This document shows positions 14,074 through 27,924 of a DNA stretch of 64,000 nt, piece after piece. The position numbers were made by a program, and so were the translations under genes. The notes under the pieces were generated by a model. The model saw nothing but the letters and a program-made list of their open reading frames with translations. It was not told the DNA's origin and did no database searches. Source of the DNA: Candidatus Hodarchaeota archaeon (GTDB taxonomy: Archaea; Asgardarchaeota; Odinarchaeia; Odinarchaeales; JBHLKK01); assembly GCA_048886745.1 (NCBI GenBank), contig JBHLKK010000002.1:9378-73377 (forward strand). Reading direction: 5' to 3'. Position 1 is the stretch's first letter. Each line of letters opens with the position of its first letter.

Positions 14074-14634
14074 ATGCTACTGAACAATGCGTTGTTTAAG
14101 GTAATAGTCACTGGAGAGGGTGGTGTTGGAAAGACCTGCCTTGTTCAACGCTATACTAGGGGCACTTTTTATCACACAAGAACAACCATTGGAGTAGGAT
14201 TTGCCACAGCTGACGTTCATCTCAATGGAAGGGATATAAAACTCCAGATTTGGGACTTTGGTGGCGAAGAACGTTTTAGAAGACTTCTTCCCTCTTTCTG
14301 CAAAGGAGCAAGCGGCGCATTAGTCCTATTTGACTTGACTAGATTTCCCACTTTTCTTCATCTCAACGAATGGTTGGATCTCATAAGAGATAACACCAGC
14401 AATATCCCGCTGGTTCTGGCGGGATCAAAGGCCGATCTTGCCAATATGAGAGTTGTTGACAGGGAACAGATCGCAGAACTAACGAGGAAATACAATATCG
14501 AGCACTATTACGAAGTCTCCGCGAAAGATGGAATGAACATAGAGGTGGTTTTTACTCAAATTGCTGAACTAATAGTTAACTCAATTGAAACTACCAGCAT
14601 GAATGATGAACACGGCATAATGAGAATACAATAG
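14074..14634 (+). CDS. Rab/Ras-like small GTPase (divergent)
   Basis: G1 GEGGVGKT, switch-II WDFGGEERF, G4 AGSKAD, G5 EVSAKDG. Size and motif spacing are Rab-like. Confidence 0.8.
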   Translation: MLLNNALFKVIVTGEGGVGKTCLVQRYTRGTFYHTRTTIGVGFATADVHLNGRDIKLQIWDFGGEERFRRLLPSFCKGASGALVLFDLTRFPTFLHLNEWLDLIRDNTSNIPLVLAGSKADLANMRVVDREQIAELTRKYNIEHYYEVSAKDGMNIEVVFTQIAELIVNSIETTSMNDEHGIMRIQ

Positions 14635-22353: not shown

Positions 22354-23199
22354 TTATTCTAGAATTATCCTCTCCAAGAGTTCCAGAAGATTGTTTCGTT
22401 GCGATTTCTCTATCGCCACCAGTCCATAGGTCTTAATACCAAGTATCTTTTCAATTTCTTCGGGAGGAAGCGCATTTCCACGATCCTGTTTGTTCGCAAC
22501 TCCTATGATTTTTGCATATGGGGCTTTGCTCTTGACCAGTGGAAGGATTTTCTCTCTTGTCAGCTTTATATTATCCAGTGTAGAGTCACAGATTATGGCA
22601 ATGACTTCTGTTCCCTTAACAAGTATGTCCCACGCAGACATGAATTGCTCCTGACCTGCGAAGTCGAATATCATGACATAATATACTCCTACTGTAACTG
22701 TAAGTGGTTCTCTATCAGCGAAGATCGTAGGGACATATTTCATTGGAATTTCTTCTTTTCTCAAGAGACGAAGTATAGTTGTCTTCCCAACACCTCCAAA
22801 TCCGACCAAAGACAATTTTACAGGAAGCTTGCTTATAATATCTATCACAACGCTGTCAAATCCATCCCCTAGCTTGGAGCTATTCTCAGTCTGATTCTCC
22901 GGACCAAACTTCTTAATGAATGAGGTCGTTATTTCCAACAGAATATCCTGAACTTCTCGTTCTGAATTTGTTCTATCGCTTAATATAGCGAATATATTCC
23001 CGTTTGACTTGAGATAGGAGAACCTGAAACGGACAATGTTCGTGTGCTCAATATTACCCATCTCCATCCTTTCGGAGGCACCCAAAATTGTAGGCAGTAT
23101 TGCATCCACTGAAATCTCCTTCGATTTCGTGTATGCTTTGTGGAAAACCTTACCTCCTGTTTTGTTGAGTATTAGTACCTCTCGTATCAACTGCGCCAC
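22354..23199 (-). CDS. Fusion protein: N-terminal longin/roadblock-like domain plus C-terminal Arf-family small GTPase
   Basis: The first 110 aa or so are a small alpha/beta regulatory-type domain (IREVLILNKTGGKVFHKAY...NGNIFAILSDRT...ILLEITTSFIKKF). Then G1 GFGGVGKTTI, G3 FDFAGQEQF and G4 VANKQD (the NKQD variant typical of Arf/Sar/SRbeta). Confidence 0.7.
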   Translation of the reverse strand: MAQLIREVLILNKTGGKVFHKAYTKSKEISVDAILPTILGASERMEMGNIEHTNIVRFRFSYLKSNGNIFAILSDRTNSEREVQDILLEITTSFIKKFGPENQTENSSKLGDGFDSVVIDIISKLPVKLSLVGFGGVGKTTILRLLRKEEIPMKYVPTIFADREPLTVTVGVYYVMIFDFAGQEQFMSAWDILVKGTEVIAIICDSTLDNIKLTREKILPLVKSKAPYAKIIGVANKQDRGNALPPEEIEKILGIKTYGLVAIEKSQRNNLLELLERIILE

Positions 23200-23476
23200 C
23201 CGGGATTCTGCTCAATCTAAAATATCGTATCTAAACATTTAATGCTTTCGCAATACTGATACGCATCTTTGTGATAATCGCAAAGCACCAAGAGCAAAAT
23301 CAGAAGAAATCTATGGAAGGACCTATCATCCGAGTCAATATGATAATTTTATTATATTCAAAATCTCTAATATTATATACGAAAAGAAAAGAATATACAC
23401 CCCCTGATTAATAAAGAAAAGACAAGAAAAGCGATATTATGTTATCGTAAAGGGGTATATTAAGGGGGAAGATGAG

Positions 23477-25315
23477 TTGCCCAAGACCGCGAAATATATG
23501 TTTAAGATAATTACTGTCGGGGATGGGATGGTTGGCAAAACCAGTCTTATTCTACGATTCACTGAAAATACCTTCAAGGAAACCTATAAGAAAACAATCG
23601 GGGCCGATTTCGCCATCAAGAATGTTGATATTGACGGGACCATAGCCAAGCTCCAAATCTGGGATTTAGGCGGTCAGGATACTTTTAAGGATCTTCGCAA
23701 GATATTCTATCCTGGAGCCCGTGGAGCTATATATGTTTTCGATGTCTCTAACAGACCATCCTTCGAGAACATCAGACACTGGTTTAAAGATATAGATGCA
23801 GTAGTTGGGGATGTTCCCAGACTATTGGTTGGTAATAAGATAGATCTAGAGAGAGAAATAAGCTATAAAGAAGGGAAACAACTGGCCGATGAGTTAGGTA
23901 TGGATTATCTTGAGACCAGCGCTAAAACTGGAGAAAAGGTAGTGGATATATTTAAGATCATGGCAAGAGTGACAGTTGGCGAGAAAGCTGAAGGAATTCC
24001 TTCTGAGGTTCCCGCTCAAATACCTGCAAAAGTCCCTGGAATCTCTGTAGATACTTCATTTGCTATAGGTCCAGAAGCTGAACTGGAATCTGATATTCCC
24101 GCAACACCTGCTGATCTGCTACCCGCTGAACCAGCAATACTCCCTGAGGTTGTTATGGATGTCTATGAATGGATTGAATCACACAGAAACGATTTCATAG
24201 ATTTACTAAAACGGCTCGTAAGCGCTGATACAACCAATCCTCCTGGACATGAATTCAGAGCAGCTAGAATAATACTGGAAGAATTACTGAAAGACAATAT
24301 CAGATTCAGGGTTTATGAAAGCGAGAAGGATAGAACGAATGTTGTTAGTTGGTCTGGTAAAGCTGAGAACCCCTCTGTTATGCTGGTTTGTCATCATGAT
24401 GTCGCACCGCAAGTTGAGGGATGGAAACATCCGCCACTTGATGCTCTTGAAAAAGAAAATAGGATATACGGGTTAGGAGCCTGTTGTAGTAAAGGTCCCC
24501 TAGTTTCTGCCATAATGGCTCTTAGAGCGATCCACGTTCTTAATGTAGAACTAAACGGACAAGCAATGGTTGTCGCAGCATCCGATGGACTTGGAGATGG
24601 GACAATTGGATTAAGGCATCTGATAGAGGAGGTAGGACTCGCTCCAAATCATGCAATTGTAGCTAGTCCTACAAACTGTACAACAATAAAGACCGTAGAA
24701 CTGGAGACACTGGCCTTCAGACTTACGAGCAGAGGACGAGTGTTTGAACCTTCATTTAAGGACATCAATGCTGCCGAAAAACTCGTTAAGGTGCTAGCGG
24801 GATTCAATGATTCAGACCAAAGCGAATATCCAATGCTAGCCAAATGTTCAATTAACATAAGGGAGATCAGAGGAATGCCTGGTGTTGGTGGAATTCCTGA
24901 ATGGGCAGAGGCAACTATAGATATTCGTCATCTATTCAAAGAGAACAATGAAAAGATACTCGATGAGGTTCGGAAACTCATTGATAATGTCAGGATATTG
25001 GATTCCGATGTTGATGTGACCATCGAGGAATTGCCCGAACCTCTAAAGATTGCTTCTTCAGTCGATGCTCCTGTGGTCATGGCGGTTCGAGACGGCCTAT
25101 ACAATACTATCAACAAAGAACCCTCTTTTACTGAAACCAAAGAGAATATCTTGGCGAAGATACTGGTTCAGAGCAAAATACCCGTGTGCATATTTGGTCC
25201 TGGGAATGAAGAGAAATGCAACAGTCCAAACGAGTATATTGAGATTGATGATATGATTGAGGGTGCTAAGGTTTTTGCTGCGTCCCTAATTACTTTGCTA
25301 GGTATTAAAGACTGA
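23477..25315 (+). CDS. Fusion protein: Rab-like small GTPase, Pro-rich linker, then a divergent M20 (ArgE/DapE-like) peptidase domain
   Basis: N-terminal 170 aa: GDGMVGKTS (G1), WDLGGQDTF (G3), GNKIDL (G4), ETSAKTG (G5). Linker PSEVPAQIPAKVPG...PATPADLLPAEPAILPEV. C-terminal domain with M20 landmarks (VCHHDVAPQVEGWKHPP, IYGLGACCSKG, GPGNEEKCNSPNEYIEIDD). TTG start at 23477 preceded by AAGGGGG; an alternative ATG lies at 23498. Confidence 0.75.
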   Translation: MPKTAKYMFKIITVGDGMVGKTSLILRFTENTFKETYKKTIGADFAIKNVDIDGTIAKLQIWDLGGQDTFKDLRKIFYPGARGAIYVFDVSNRPSFENIRHWFKDIDAVVGDVPRLLVGNKIDLEREISYKEGKQLADELGMDYLETSAKTGEKVVDIFKIMARVTVGEKAEGIPSEVPAQIPAKVPGISVDTSFAIGPEAELESDIPATPADLLPAEPAILPEVVMDVYEWIESHRNDFIDLLKRLVSADTTNPPGHEFRAARIILEELLKDNIRFRVYESEKDRTNVVSWSGKAENPSVMLVCHHDVAPQVEGWKHPPLDALEKENRIYGLGACCSKGPLVSAIMALRAIHVLNVELNGQAMVVAASDGLGDGTIGLRHLIEEVGLAPNHAIVASPTNCTTIKTVELETLAFRLTSRGRVFEPSFKDINAAEKLVKVLAGFNDSDQSEYPMLAKCSINIREIRGMPGVGGIPEWAEATIDIRHLFKENNEKILDEVRKLIDNVRILDSDVDVTIEELPEPLKIASSVDAPVVMAVRDGLYNTINKEPSFTETKENILAKILVQSKIPVCIFGPGNEEKCNSPNEYIEIDDMIEGAKVFAASLITLLGIKD

Positions 25316-26970: not shown

Positions 26971-27924
26971 TTGAAGGAAAAGTTAAATTATAGGAAAATA
27001 ATAATAAAGACTGAGACCAAAACGCATGAAAAAGATGTGTTAGTCATGATACTTTACGGTGTATCGGATACTGGTGATCTGAACGAATTGAAAGGGGACA
27101 AACCAATTAAGGATTATTTGGTTAGCGACAAGGTTCTTATTTTAATAGATGACGACTTGAAGAAAATTTGGATATGGAAAGGTAAAAGCGCCCCTGTCCG
27201 ACAGAAATTTATTAGTGCGCGAGTGGCAAATCAAATAAGGCAAGAAAGAGGATTGACCTACAAAACTCTAAGCATTGATGAAGGTGATGAATCGCAAGAG
27301 TTTCTTGATTCATCAGGAGCCAAACCAAAGAAAGCCCCCCATCCTCCCCTTCCAGCTGAGCCCAAGCCTCCCGCTCCTGTTCCGGCTCCTGAGTCTGTTC
27401 CAACACCGGCTGCTTCAGCTCCCAAGCCCTTGGCCAAACAGCCTGAAGCACCAAAAACTCCAATGACGTCAAAAGCCACTTCACCTGTGCCCTCCCCCGC
27501 CACAGCAATCGTTACACCTCTTGAAGCGGAGGTGATATCAAAACTTGAAAGAGTTGAAATCCCTCGTGGATATGAAAGAGAGTTGGTTATCGTTGGCAAT
27601 GAGGTGTATGCAATCACAGAATACAGAACGATTTTTCTGGGGGAGAAGAAGGTTGAAACAAAGCTGGAAAAAGCTGCCAAGCTGCCAGAGGGGATATTTT
27701 TCGCAGAAGGTTACACACCCAGGGTAATAGTGGACAAAGGTCGCGTTCTGGCTGTTGAATTCTTGAAAACGGGTAAGGGGGTTGAAGTTCCTACCACGGA
27801 TGCTGCTGCCCGTTCATTGCGAGATGAAATGAAACTACATCTGAGCGACCTAGTCGATTTCTTCAAAATAGATATCCCTAAGAAAGAGAAGAAGCAGAAG
27901 AAGGAAAAGAAGGGAAAGAAATAG
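26971..27924 (+). CDS. Gelsolin-domain protein: N-terminal gelsolin/villin-type domain, polyproline linker, C-terminal domain with a Lys-rich tail
   Basis: VSDKVLILIDDDLKKIWIWKGKSAPVRQKFISARVANQIRQERGLTYKTLSIDEGDESQEFLD aligns motif-for-motif with gelsolin/villin G1 (..DCFILD....I..W.G..S...E...A......IRD.ER.G.A...V..EG.E...ML.). Then PHPPLPAEPKPPAPVPAPESVPTP. It ends KKEKKQKKEKKGKK. Confidence 0.6.
   Translation: MKEKLNYRKIIIKTETKTHEKDVLVMILYGVSDTGDLNELKGDKPIKDYLVSDKVLILIDDDLKKIWIWKGKSAPVRQKFISARVANQIRQERGLTYKTLSIDEGDESQEFLDSSGAKPKKAPHPPLPAEPKPPAPVPAPESVPTPAASAPKPLAKQPEAPKTPMTSKATSPVPSPATAIVTPLEAEVISKLERVEIPRGYERELVIVGNEVYAITEYRTIFLGEKKVETKLEKAAKLPEGIFFAEGYTPRVIVDKGRVLAVEFLKTGKGVEVPTTDAAARSLRDEMKLHLSDLVDFFKIDIPKKEKKQKKEKKGKK

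What the first reader, a model, noticed from the sequence alone, without database searches (positions are those of the whole stretch)
22354..23199. Longin/roadblock-like domain fused N-terminally to an Arf-family GTPase
The C-terminal half has the NKQD G4 motif, DxxGQ switch II and GxGxxGKTT P-loop of Arf/Sar/SRbeta-type GTPases. It is preceded by a compact regulatory-type alpha/beta domain of about 110 aa, the longin / roadblock / SRX class of fold that regulates small GTPases in eukaryotic trafficking. In eukaryotes the Ragulator-Rag GTPases place the roadblock after the GTPase, and SRalpha places SRX (longin) before an SRP-type GTPase. A longin-like domain in front of an Arf-like G domain is an unusual order. 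It may illuminate how GTPase and regulator modules were combined before eukaryogenesis.
Basis: partly seen in the sequence, partly recalled or inferred. Interest (0 to 1): 0.6.

Follow-up and report, generated by a model that had tools for sequence, protein, structure and literature searches.

The report
Longin domain fused to Arf-like GTPase
This is a real gene of an Asgard archaeon that joins a longin domain directly to an Arf-like small GTPase, but the same fusion has been reported in Asgard archaea since 2016, so it is a new member of a known family.

Summary
Window 22354..23199, on the minus strand, is one uninterrupted ORF of 281 codons; the likely start is TTG 23190, giving 278 aa. It is identical to MFX0096260.1 from a Hodarchaeota MAG. 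Residues about 4-122 fold as beta-beta-alpha-beta-beta-beta-alpha-alpha. Their best structural matches are VAMP7, AP sigma, zeta-COP, Sec22b and Ykt6, so the domain is a longin, not a roadblock. Three residues later a complete small-GTPase domain begins (GFGGVGKTT, T158, DFAGQ, NKQD).

The G domain is closest to Asgard ArfR and to Arf1, but it is not a core Arf. Over the same 131 residues it scores 55 bits on Pfam Arf, against 139 bits for a genuine ArfR. It has no N-terminal amphipathic helix and no lipidation site.

The fusion is conserved in about 100 Asgard homologues. Of the 80 longest representatives that carry this longin type, 74 have the G domain right after it.

The claim of an "unusual order" is true only against eukaryotes. 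Longin fused to Arf-like GTPases was reported for Lokiarchaeum (Klinger 2016), for many Asgard genomes (Liu 2020), for MK-D1 (Tran 2024) and for the AArfs (Zhu 2025).

The most likely function is a soluble GTP switch with a built-in longin platform for dimerisation or partner binding. This is inferred, not shown.

The parts
22354..23199 (-). Whole ORF: 281 codons from GTG 23199, with the stop at 22354-22356. The probable true start is TTG 23190, giving 278 aa beginning MIREV.
   Evidence: Identical to the 278-aa MFX0096260.1.
22834..23190 (-). Longin domain, residues 4-122: beta1 5-12, beta2 17-22, alpha1 31-43, beta3 50-55, beta4 58-65, beta5 68-75, alpha2 80-98, alpha3 107-122.
   Evidence: AF2 pLDDT 83. 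Foldseek top hits are VAMP7, AP sigma, zeta-COP, Sec22b, Ykt6 and SEDL. Family profile against PDB sequences: AP-2 sigma E 2.3e-4. Pfam Longin is below threshold, 18-20 bits against a cut-off of 26.2.
22825..22833 (-). Three-residue linker (SKL, residues 123-125) between longin helix alpha3 and G-domain strand beta1.
   Evidence: In 66 of 74 related representatives the gap between the longin and G-domain matches is 1-5 residues.
22357..22824 (-). Small-GTPase (G) domain, residues 126-281, Arf-like.
   Evidence: Pfam Arf 56 bits, Roc 41, Ras 40. TIGR00231 small_GTP 55.6 bits against a cut-off of 42.5. Family profile against PDB: GerdArfR1 76 bits, Arf1 70, RhoA 59. Foldseek finds small GTPases at about 1e-10.
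22777..22803 (-). G1 / P-loop GFGGVGKTT (residues 133-141).
   Evidence: The stretch GGVGKTT (135-141) and G133 are invariant in the subfamily; F134 is not.
22726..22728 (-). G2 / switch I threonine T158, within YVPTIF.
   Evidence: Invariant. The region 149-163 has pLDDT below 50, as expected for a mobile switch.
22651..22665 (-). G3 / switch II DFAGQ (residues 179-183), including the catalytic-type Gln183. It is followed by EQFMSAW, with W190 invariant.
22483..22494 (-). G4 NKQD (residues 236-239).
   Evidence: NKQD is present in 88 of 94 family members.
22411..22419 (-). G5-like VAI (residues 261-263); A262 is nearly invariant.
   Evidence: A262 conserved in at least 90% of 94 sequences. 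The assignment to G5 is by position and is an inference.
23218..23225 (-). TATA-like ATATTTTA, 26 nt upstream of GTG 23199 and 35 nt upstream of TTG 23190. Possible archaeal promoter element.
   Evidence: This is a sequence match only; its function is inferred.

Best explanation
What it is: the gene encodes a two-domain cytosolic signalling protein of a Hodarchaeota-type Asgard archaeon. An N-terminal longin domain is joined rigidly, by a 3-residue linker, to a complete and probably catalytically competent small GTPase domain. The G domain belongs to the Asgard-specific 'Arf-like' group. It is closest to ArfR/Arf in sequence but lies outside the core Arf family. The protein is the shortest form (longin-G, about 275 aa) of a superfamily. 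In that superfamily this longin type is almost always followed at once by this G-domain type, with C-terminal extensions of 0 to about 480 aa.

How it most likely works (inferred): it cycles between GTP and GDP states like other small GTPases. It cannot anchor to membranes the way Arf or Rab does, because it has no amphipathic helix, no Gly2 and no C-terminal Cys. The longin domain sits where the Arf N-terminal helix would be. It probably serves as a built-in protein-protein platform for homo- or heterodimerisation or for docking a regulator or effector. That is the same logic as the roadblock domain of Rag/Gtr GTPases, MglB-MglA, and SRX bound to SRbeta.

Shown here: the gene, the fusion, both folds, the motifs, the conservation and the Asgard-only distribution. 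Inferred: GTPase activity, dimerisation or partner binding, and cytosolic location.
For: The ORF is intact and is a deposited protein.

Longin fold: the AF2 model has longin topology (pLDDT 83, pTM 0.81/0.78). Foldseek gives VAMP7 longin TM 0.80 and rmsd 2.4, followed by AP sigma, zeta-COP, Sec22b, Ykt6, SEDL and Bet5. The family profile hits AP-2 sigma at E 2.3e-4, then VAMP7 and AP-2 mu.

G domain: all G motifs are invariant. Pfam Arf is the best family hit. The family profile ranks GerdArfR1 at 76 bits, Arf1 at 70 and RhoA at 59.

Outside the core Arf family: Pfam Arf scores 54.8 bits here against 138.8 for GerdArfR1 over the same core. Ras-like proteins score 41.5-56.1 bits on the Arf model.

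No lipid anchors: none of the 94 members has a Cys in its last five residues, and 3 of 94 have Gly at position 2.

The fusion is conserved. About 100 homologues keep the N-terminal domain in front of the P-loop. All homologues that carry an organism name are Asgard. The N-domain profile finds 289 cluster representatives among 1.84 billion proteins. Of the best 150, 80 are at least 270 aa long, and 74 of those have the G domain straight after the longin.

Literature describing the same architecture: PMC4917890, 10.1101/2020.10.19.343400, PMC10933270 and PMC11914678.
Against: No experiment or interface model supports the dimerisation or platform role. The tools returned no coordinates or PAE, so the longin/G interface could not be inspected. 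Both switch regions have low pLDDT, so the model neither shows nor excludes a cis contact between longin and switches.

Placement in Klinger's ArfL clade, rather than Zhu's AArf clade or Tran's 'Rag-like' class, was not tested by phylogeny. The published groupings themselves disagree.

The Pfam Longin model is below its gathering score.
Confidence: 0.8

Rival explanations
1. The G domain is a genuine Arf-family (ArfR/AArf) member, so the protein is a direct relative of the ancestor of eukaryotic Arf, Sar and SRbeta that happens to carry a longin domain.
For: The best PDB matches are GerdArfR1 and Arf1/Arl5/Arl8. Pfam Arf is the top family. It has NKQD, GKTT, PTI and the tryptophan after switch II. 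Larger sister subfamilies have WDFAGQ and the Arf-like 19-residue spacing from the switch I Thr to the G3 Asp (the Arf1 spacing is from my own knowledge). Zhu et al. state that some AArfs have longin N-termini (PMC11914678).
Against: Over the same 131-residue core the Arf HMM score is 54.8 bits, against 138.8 for a true ArfR. The margin over Ras/Roc is only about 12 bits, against about 90-100 bits for ArfR. Ras-like GTPases reach the same Arf score. The P-loop is GFGGVGKTT, not the Arf-type GLDxAGKTT (own knowledge). The Thr-to-Asp spacing in this subfamily is 21. There is no N-terminal amphipathic helix. Vargova et al. find that the earlier 'Arf-like' (ArfL) Asgard group is not directly related to Arf.
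Confidence: 0.12
2. It is a Rag/Gtr-type GTPase in which a longin on the N-terminal side replaces the C-terminal roadblock, and it works as an obligate dimer like RagA/C.
For: Tran et al. class the longin- and roadblock-fused MK-D1 GTPases as structurally 'Rag-like, but also close to Arf' (PMC10933270). [quoted passage not shown] Zhu et al. place Arfl near Rag and Rup2. Relatives give weak Gtr1_RagA hits of 20-29 bits.
Against: This protein has no Gtr1_RagA hit at E<=1. No Rag chain appears among the top 60 PDB profile hits, so any Rag scores below 54.8 bits. Its G4 motif is NKQD, whereas Rag has HKxD (own knowledge). It has no C-terminal roadblock: the protein ends with the G domain.
Confidence: 0.1
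3. The N-terminal domain is a roadblock/LC7/MglB-type domain rather than a longin.
For: The two folds share a core. A Ragulator subunit appears in the Foldseek list at rank 35 with TM 0.53.
Against: There is no helix before beta1, and two helices follow beta5, which is the longin order. The top 34 Foldseek hits are all longins. No roadblock protein appears in the PDB profile hits. No Robl_LC7 hit was found in 27 family members.
Confidence: 0.02
4. The ORF is an assembly or annotation artefact that merges two genes.
For: None was found.
Against: There is no internal stop. The same architecture occurs in about 100 homologues from NCBI, JGI, ENA and Logan assemblies of several Asgard classes. The linker is 1-5 residues in 66 of 74 representatives.
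Confidence: 0.01

Closest known systems
Asgard 'Arf-like' GTPases with an N-terminal longin domain (Lokiarchaeum, Klinger et al. 2016, as cited in PMC4917890; MK-D1 L-G architectures, Tran et al. 2024, PMC10933270; AArfs with longin N-termini, Zhu et al. 2025, PMC11914678)
   Same: The same domain order (longin then small GTPase), the same 'Arf-like by annotation' G domain, the same restriction to Asgard archaea and the same lack of lipid anchors.
   Different: This copy comes from a Hodarchaeota MAG deposited after those papers (accession MFX0096260.1). It belongs to the shortest (about 275 aa) subfamily, which has a switch I-to-G3 spacing 2 residues longer.
ArfR / eukaryotic Arf family (GerdArfR1 8OUN/8OUM; Arf1)
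   Same: These are the best sequence matches. Shared features are GKTT, PTI in switch I, DxxGQ followed by a conserved Trp, and NKQD.
   Different: There is no N-terminal amphipathic helix; a longin takes its place. The P-loop is Ras-like (GGVGKT). The Arf HMM score is 55 bits against 139 over the same core.
Rag/Gtr GTPases (G domain plus C-terminal roadblock dimerisation domain)
   Same: The logic is the same: a small GTPase covalently joined to a domain of the longin/roadblock superfamily, which in Rags mediates dimerisation and docking (own knowledge; PMC10933270).
   Different: The order is opposite (regulatory domain at the N-terminus), the domain is a longin and not a roadblock, and there is no Gtr1_RagA HMM match.
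SRX (longin-type domain of SRalpha) bound to SRbeta (an Arf-related GTPase)
   Same: It pairs a longin-type domain with an Arf-related G domain (own knowledge of the SRX-SRbeta complex). Vargova et al. place SRbeta inside the Arf family.
   Different: In SR the two parts are separate polypeptides, and SRbeta has a transmembrane anchor. The SRPRB HMM scores only 13.3 bits against a cut-off of 25. SRX is not among the top 50 structural hits of the N domain.
Sigma/mu adaptin and zeta/delta-COP longin subunits of Arf-recruited coats
   Same: These are the best sequence-profile and top structural matches of the N domain. The shared N-terminal M-[IL]-R start is aligned from residue 1.
   Different: They are separate subunits of heterotetrameric coats and are never fused to a GTPase. 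The similarity is weak (E 2.3e-4, 11-20% identity).

Membership tests
Longin domain | Topology beta-beta-alpha-beta-beta-beta-alpha-alpha, with no helix before beta1 | tested here: met
   DSSP of the AF2 models: E5-12, E17-22, H31-43, E50-55, E58-65, E68-75, H80-98, H107-122.
Longin domain | Best structural matches are solved longin domains | tested here: met
   Foldseek against PDB: VAMP7 TM 0.80 and rmsd 2.4, then AP sigma, zeta-COP, Sec22b, Ykt6, SEDL and Bet5; 67 hits at E<=1e-3.
Longin domain | Sequence-profile similarity to known longin proteins | tested here: met
   Family profile against PDB sequences: AP-2 sigma E 2.3e-4, VAMP7 longin 0.03-0.06, AP-2 mu N-terminal domain 0.03.
Longin domain | Pfam Longin (PF13774) above its gathering score | tested here: not met
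   18.3-20.3 bits against a cut-off of 26.2. Only 4 of 27 family members hit at E<=1. The model is built on SNARE-type longins.
Roadblock/LC7/MglB | N-terminal helix before beta1, Robl_LC7 HMM match, and roadblock proteins as best structural match | tested here: not met
   No N-terminal helix. No Robl_LC7 hit in 27 members. The first roadblock hit is at rank 35 with TM 0.53.
Ras-superfamily small GTPase | G1 GxxxxGK[ST], G2 Thr, G3 DxxG(Q), G4 NKxD and the Rossmann-like G fold | tested here: met
   GFGGVGKTT, T158, DFAGQ and NKQD are invariant. TIGR00231 scores 55.6 bits against a cut-off of 42.5. Foldseek finds small GTPases at about 1e-10.
Arf family sensu stricto (Arf/Arl/Sar/SRbeta plus Asgard ArfR) | N-terminal amphipathic helix (or TM in SRbeta) that couples nucleotide state to membrane binding | tested here: not met
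   The N-terminus is the longin beta1 strand, and the G domain follows longin helix alpha3. Gly2 occurs in only 3 of 94 members.
Arf family sensu stricto (Arf/Arl/Sar/SRbeta plus Asgard ArfR) | Arf HMM score comparable with members and clearly above Ras/Roc | tested here: not met
   54.8 bits (Ras 41.9, Roc 43.2), against 138.8 bits (Ras 39.9) for GerdArfR1 over the same core. Ras-like proteins reach 41.5-56.1 bits on the Arf model.
Arf family sensu stricto (Arf/Arl/Sar/SRbeta plus Asgard ArfR) | Short interswitch: 19 residues from the switch I Thr to the G3 Asp, as in Arf1 (own knowledge) | tested here: not met
   The spacing is 21 in this subfamily. It is 19 in 67 of 94 members of the wider superfamily.
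Arf family sensu stricto (Arf/Arl/Sar/SRbeta plus Asgard ArfR) | Phylogenetic placement inside the ArfR plus eukaryotic Arf clade | not tested
Asgard longin-fused Arf-like GTPases (ArfL-type; Klinger 2016) | N-terminal longin followed directly by an Arf-like G domain | tested here: met
.
Asgard longin-fused Arf-like GTPases (ArfL-type; Klinger 2016) | Restricted to Asgard archaea | tested here: met
   All named homologues are Hod-, Prometh/Loki-, Thor-, Odin-, Hermod-, Ran-, Atabey- or Freyarchaeota-type. Unnamed metagenome hits could not be assigned.
Asgard longin-fused Arf-like GTPases (ArfL-type; Klinger 2016) | Clusters with the reference ArfL sequences in a tree | not tested
   Klinger et al. 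2016 is not held in the library. No reference sequences could be obtained.
Rag/Gtr GTPases | C-terminal roadblock dimerisation domain and a Gtr1_RagA HMM match | tested here: not met
   The protein ends with the G domain. There is no PF04670 hit at E<=1. No Rag chain is in the top 60 PDB profile hits.
SRbeta | SRPRB HMM above threshold and an N-terminal transmembrane anchor | tested here: not met
   SRPRB scores 13.3 bits against a cut-off of 25. The N-terminus is a soluble longin domain.

The most novel reading that the evidence does not exclude
The N-terminal longin is specifically akin to the small and medium chains of Arf-recruited coats; AP sigma/mu and zeta-COP are its best sequence-profile hits and among its top structural hits. 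It is almost obligately fused to an Arf-like G domain. In this reading the covalent longin-GTPase unit preserves an ancestral state of the Arf-coat-adaptor partnership (or of SRX-SRbeta), which eukaryotes later split into separate subunits. In other Asgard lineages the same unit is coupled, by operon or by fusion, to a coiled-coil protein. That would make it a primitive GTPase-plus-tether/effector module.
Probability: 0.07. Interest if true: 0.75.

Novelty: new member of a known kind. Interest (0 to 1): 0.25.

Why it matters
Longin/roadblock platforms and small GTPases are the core logic of eukaryotic membrane traffic, for example Rag-Ragulator, TRAPP, Mon1-Ccz1, SR and the Arf coats. Asgard fusions show which pairs were already physically coupled before eukaryotes arose. 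This gene adds a cleanly modelled member from Hodarchaeota, an Asgard lineage.

The analysis also shows that this longin type is almost always fused to this G-domain type. In addition, the G domain is Arf-like but not a core Arf, which limits how directly it can be read as an ancestor of eukaryotic Arf systems. It does not open a new question, because the architecture has been in the literature since 2016.

Tried and rejected

2. Word-indexed search. Searching the word-indexed protein database with the N-domain alignment returned a single fragment and was uninformative. The exhaustive representative search replaced it.

3. Domain interface. No coordinates or PAE are returned for models, so the longin/G interface, and any resemblance to SRX-SRbeta or MglB-MglA docking, could not be examined.

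4. Arginine-finger idea. Some eukaryotic longins (FLCN, NPRL2, SMCR8) are GAPs, described with a GP motif in the beta1-beta2 region and an arginine finger (PMC12290439). Here that loop is KTGG, with no conserved Arg or GP. The near-invariant Arg of M-I-R-E is shared with sigma-adaptins and is more likely structural. The idea was rejected as unsupported.

5. C-terminal extensions. The extensions of about 70 and about 170 aa in larger relatives gave no roadblock Pfam hit, only weak TPR or nothing. Whether they match Tran's L-G-R class is left open.

6. Operon partners. Partners seen in other lineages were searched for in the window by tblastn, and none was found. A test of whether the upstream protein of about 365 aa starts with a longin gave only 4-6 bits and is inconclusive.

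7. Literature and phylogeny. Klinger et al. 2016 could not be read directly and is cited through PMC4917890. A G-domain phylogeny was not attempted, because there were no reference sequences and no ML software.

Full report
OBSERVATION. Window 22354..23199 holds one ORF on the minus strand: 281 codons from GTG 23199 to a stop at 22354-22356, with no internal stop. An identical 278-aa protein is deposited as MFX0096260.1, 'ADP-ribosylation factor-like protein [Candidatus Hodarchaeota archaeon]'. It and most homologues begin MIRE.., so TTG 23190 is the likelier start. A TATA-like ATATTTTA lies 26-35 nt upstream (inference only). The gene stands alone. It is transcribed divergently from a Rab-like GTPase-M20 peptidase fusion gene. 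About 480 bp downstream come nadX-nadA-nadC and 2-oxoacid:ferredoxin oxidoreductase genes. A 91%-identical orthologue has the same synteny.

THE N-TERMINAL DOMAIN IS A LONGIN. AlphaFold2 was run with a 94-sequence alignment and gave pLDDT 83.1 and pTM 0.81 for the whole protein. For residues 1-122 alone it gave pLDDT 83.0 and pTM 0.78. The secondary-structure order is beta(5-12), beta(17-22), alpha(31-43), beta(50-55), beta(58-65), beta(68-75), alpha(80-98), alpha(107-122). No helix precedes beta1 and two helices follow beta5. That is the longin order; roadblock has a helix first (the topology comparison is described in PMC10933270).

Foldseek of the isolated domain against the PDB returned 67 hits at E<=1e-3. 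The list is led by AP-1/AP-2 sigma, VAMP7 longin (TM 0.80, rmsd 2.4 A), zeta-COP, Sec22b, Ykt6, SEDL and Bet5. The first roadblock protein (Ragulator) is rank 35 with TM 0.53.

A profile of 27 diverse N-domains, searched against PDB sequences, found AP-2 sigma (E 2.3e-4, aligned from residue 1 of both). It also found VAMP7 longin and the AP-2 mu N-terminal domain, and no roadblock protein. Pfam's Longin model stays below its gathering score (18-20 bits against 26.2), and Robl_LC7 never hits. The fold assignment therefore rests on structure prediction plus profile similarity, not on a curated Pfam call.

THE C-TERMINAL DOMAIN IS A COMPLETE, ARF-LIKE SMALL GTPASE BUT NOT A CORE ARF. G1-G4 and the switch I Thr are invariant across the subfamily, and the Gln of DxxGQ is present. 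Pfam ranks Arf (56 bits) above Roc (41) and Ras (40). The family profile ranks the Asgard ArfR structure GerdArfR1 (8OUN, 76 bits) and Arf1 (70) above RhoA (59). No Rag chain is in the top 60.

The Arf signal is nevertheless weak. Over the same 131-residue core, GerdArfR1 scores 138.8 bits on Pfam Arf and 39.9 on Ras. The GerdArfR1 sequence was copied from the alignment printed. This protein scores 54.8 on Arf and 41.9 on Ras. Ordinary Ras-like GTPases from the window and from a related locus score 41.5-56.1 bits on the Arf model as a cross-hit.

Other features point the same way. The P-loop is GF[GSA]GVGKTT, which is Ras-like. The Arf-type GLDxAGKTT used for comparison comes from my own knowledge. 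The spacing from the switch I Thr to the G3 Asp is 21 in this subfamily and 19 in 67 of 94 superfamily members. There is no N-terminal amphipathic helix, essentially no Gly2, and no C-terminal Cys.

This profile fits the Asgard-only 'Arf-like' (ArfL) group of Klinger et al. 2016. Vargova et al. find that group not directly related to eukaryotic Arfs, and Zhu et al. place it near Rag and Rup2. Zhu et al. also note longin N-termini inside their AArf clade, and Tran et al. call the longin- and roadblock-fused MK-D1 proteins 'Rag-like, but also close to Arf'. Exact clade membership needs a proper phylogeny, which I could not run.

THE FUSION IS REAL, OLD AND NEARLY OBLIGATE. A database search gave 101 homologues, and every one that carries an organism name is Asgard: Hod-, Prometh/Loki-, Thor-, Odin-, Hermod- or Ranarchaeia-type. 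A scan of species-representative genomes added Atabeyarchaeia and Freyarchaeota. Nearly all homologues keep 111-136 residues before the P-loop (one, P0097, has 86). They fall into length classes of about 275 aa (no extension), about 344 aa and about 450 aa.

An exhaustive HMMER search of 1.84 billion cluster representatives with the N-domain profile found only 289 at E<=1e-3. Of the best 150, 80 are at least 270 aa long. 74 of those carry the G domain, and in 66 of them the two domain matches are 1-5 residues apart. C-terminal extensions range from 0 to about 480 aa. Within the 64-kb window there are two other small GTPases, both Ras-like, and no second longin of this type.

MECHANISM (INFERRED). 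The intact catalytic motifs suggest a working GTP/GDP switch. Both switch regions are modelled with low confidence (residues 149-163 have pLDDT below 50), as expected for mobile switches. The protein lacks every known membrane-anchoring device of Arf and Rab proteins.

The longin's last helix runs straight into G-domain strand beta1, where Arf has its amphipathic helix. Longin and roadblock domains generally work as dimeric platforms that dock or regulate small GTPases. Examples are Rag-Ragulator, MglB-MglA, TRAPP and SRX-SRbeta (own knowledge, and PMC10933270). My best guess, at roughly 40%, is therefore a soluble GTPase. It would dimerise or recruit a partner through its longin domain, with nucleotide state gating that interaction. 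I could not inspect the predicted interface, because no coordinates or PAE are returned.

An arginine-finger GAP role for the longin, as in FLCN, NPRL2 and SMCR8 (PMC12290439), is unsupported. The beta1-beta2 loop (KTGG) has no conserved Arg or GP motif.

COMPARISON WITH WHAT IS KNOWN. But the architecture is documented for Asgard archaea:
[quoted passage not shown] This gene is therefore a new member of a known kind.

VERDICT. Interest is low to moderate (0.25).

The more interesting material is in the side observations. In other lineages orthologues sit in a conserved operon with a wHTH protein and a coiled-coil protein. The same coiled-coil tail is fused to longer relatives, and one relative has this longin type fused to a prenyltransferase domain.

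Noticed in passing
L005:3905-6331, L006:638-3727, L007:3353-5924, L002:6001-7463, L003:3710-5190: In Ranarchaeia- and Odin-type orthologues the longin-GTPase gene overlaps by 4 bp a downstream ORF of 166-220 aa. That ORF encodes a coiled-coil, Pro/Glu-rich protein ending in a conserved motif (..ERxIxDLEFxxxxGFxDxxEY..). In three loci the GTPase gene is also preceded by a conserved protein of 361-371 aa with a C-terminal winged-helix (weak TrmB/MarR hits). Neither partner is found in the 64-kb window.
   Followed up: partly
Proteins P0115, P0120, P0123, P0129, P0140 (590-750 aa relatives): Long relatives carry longin-G, then a low-complexity linker, then a C-terminal coiled coil (weak CdvA-like hit). 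The tail motif (..DLE[ML]xNxxGxxxDxx[FY]..) resembles the C-terminus of the separate operon partner. This is a Rosetta-stone-like hint that the coiled-coil protein is a functional partner. BLAST support is weak, about 1e-5 in a small database.
   Followed up: partly
Protein P0255 (425 aa, metagenomic): The same longin type is fused to a prenyltransferase alpha-alpha toroid domain (PF00432, 105 bits) in place of a GTPase. This is curious, because Asgard small GTPases lack prenylation motifs.
   Followed up: no
window 23477-25315 (+): A 612-aa protein has an N-terminal Rab/Ras-like GTPase (Pfam Ras 175 bits) fused through a Pro/Ala-rich linker to an M20 peptidase with its dimerisation domain. 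It is transcribed divergently from the longin-GTPase gene and is conserved in the 91%-identical relative.
   Followed up: partly
window 26971-27924 (+) and 27974-28372 (+): Two adjacent genes may encode eukaryotic-signature-type proteins. The first is a 317-aa protein with a weak gelsolin-repeat hit (15 bits), a Pro-rich middle and a Lys-rich tail. The second is a 132-aa protein with a sub-threshold Roadblock/LC7 hit (20.4 bits against a cut-off of 23).
   Followed up: no
window 14074-14634 (+): A stand-alone 186-aa Ras-like small GTPase (Pfam Ras 143 bits) lies about 650 bp downstream of NADH-dehydrogenase subunit H-like and 4Fe-4S ferredoxin genes, and is followed by a 327-aa ORF with no Pfam hit. 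This makes three small GTPases in 64 kb.
   Followed up: no
L006:4571-5572 (+) and L006:3766-4311 (-): Within about 2 kb of the P0019 orthologue lie two further GTPase genes. One is a second longin-GTPase paralogue of 333 aa, with a weak Fuz/Mon1/HPS1-type longin hit plus Arf-like G. The other is a 181-aa Ras-like GTPase. Together they form a local cluster of GTPase genes.
   Followed up: no
window 36600-37787 (-): Two adjacent ORFs (239 and 147 aa) both begin with a DUF1922 zinc-ribbon-like domain.
   Followed up: no
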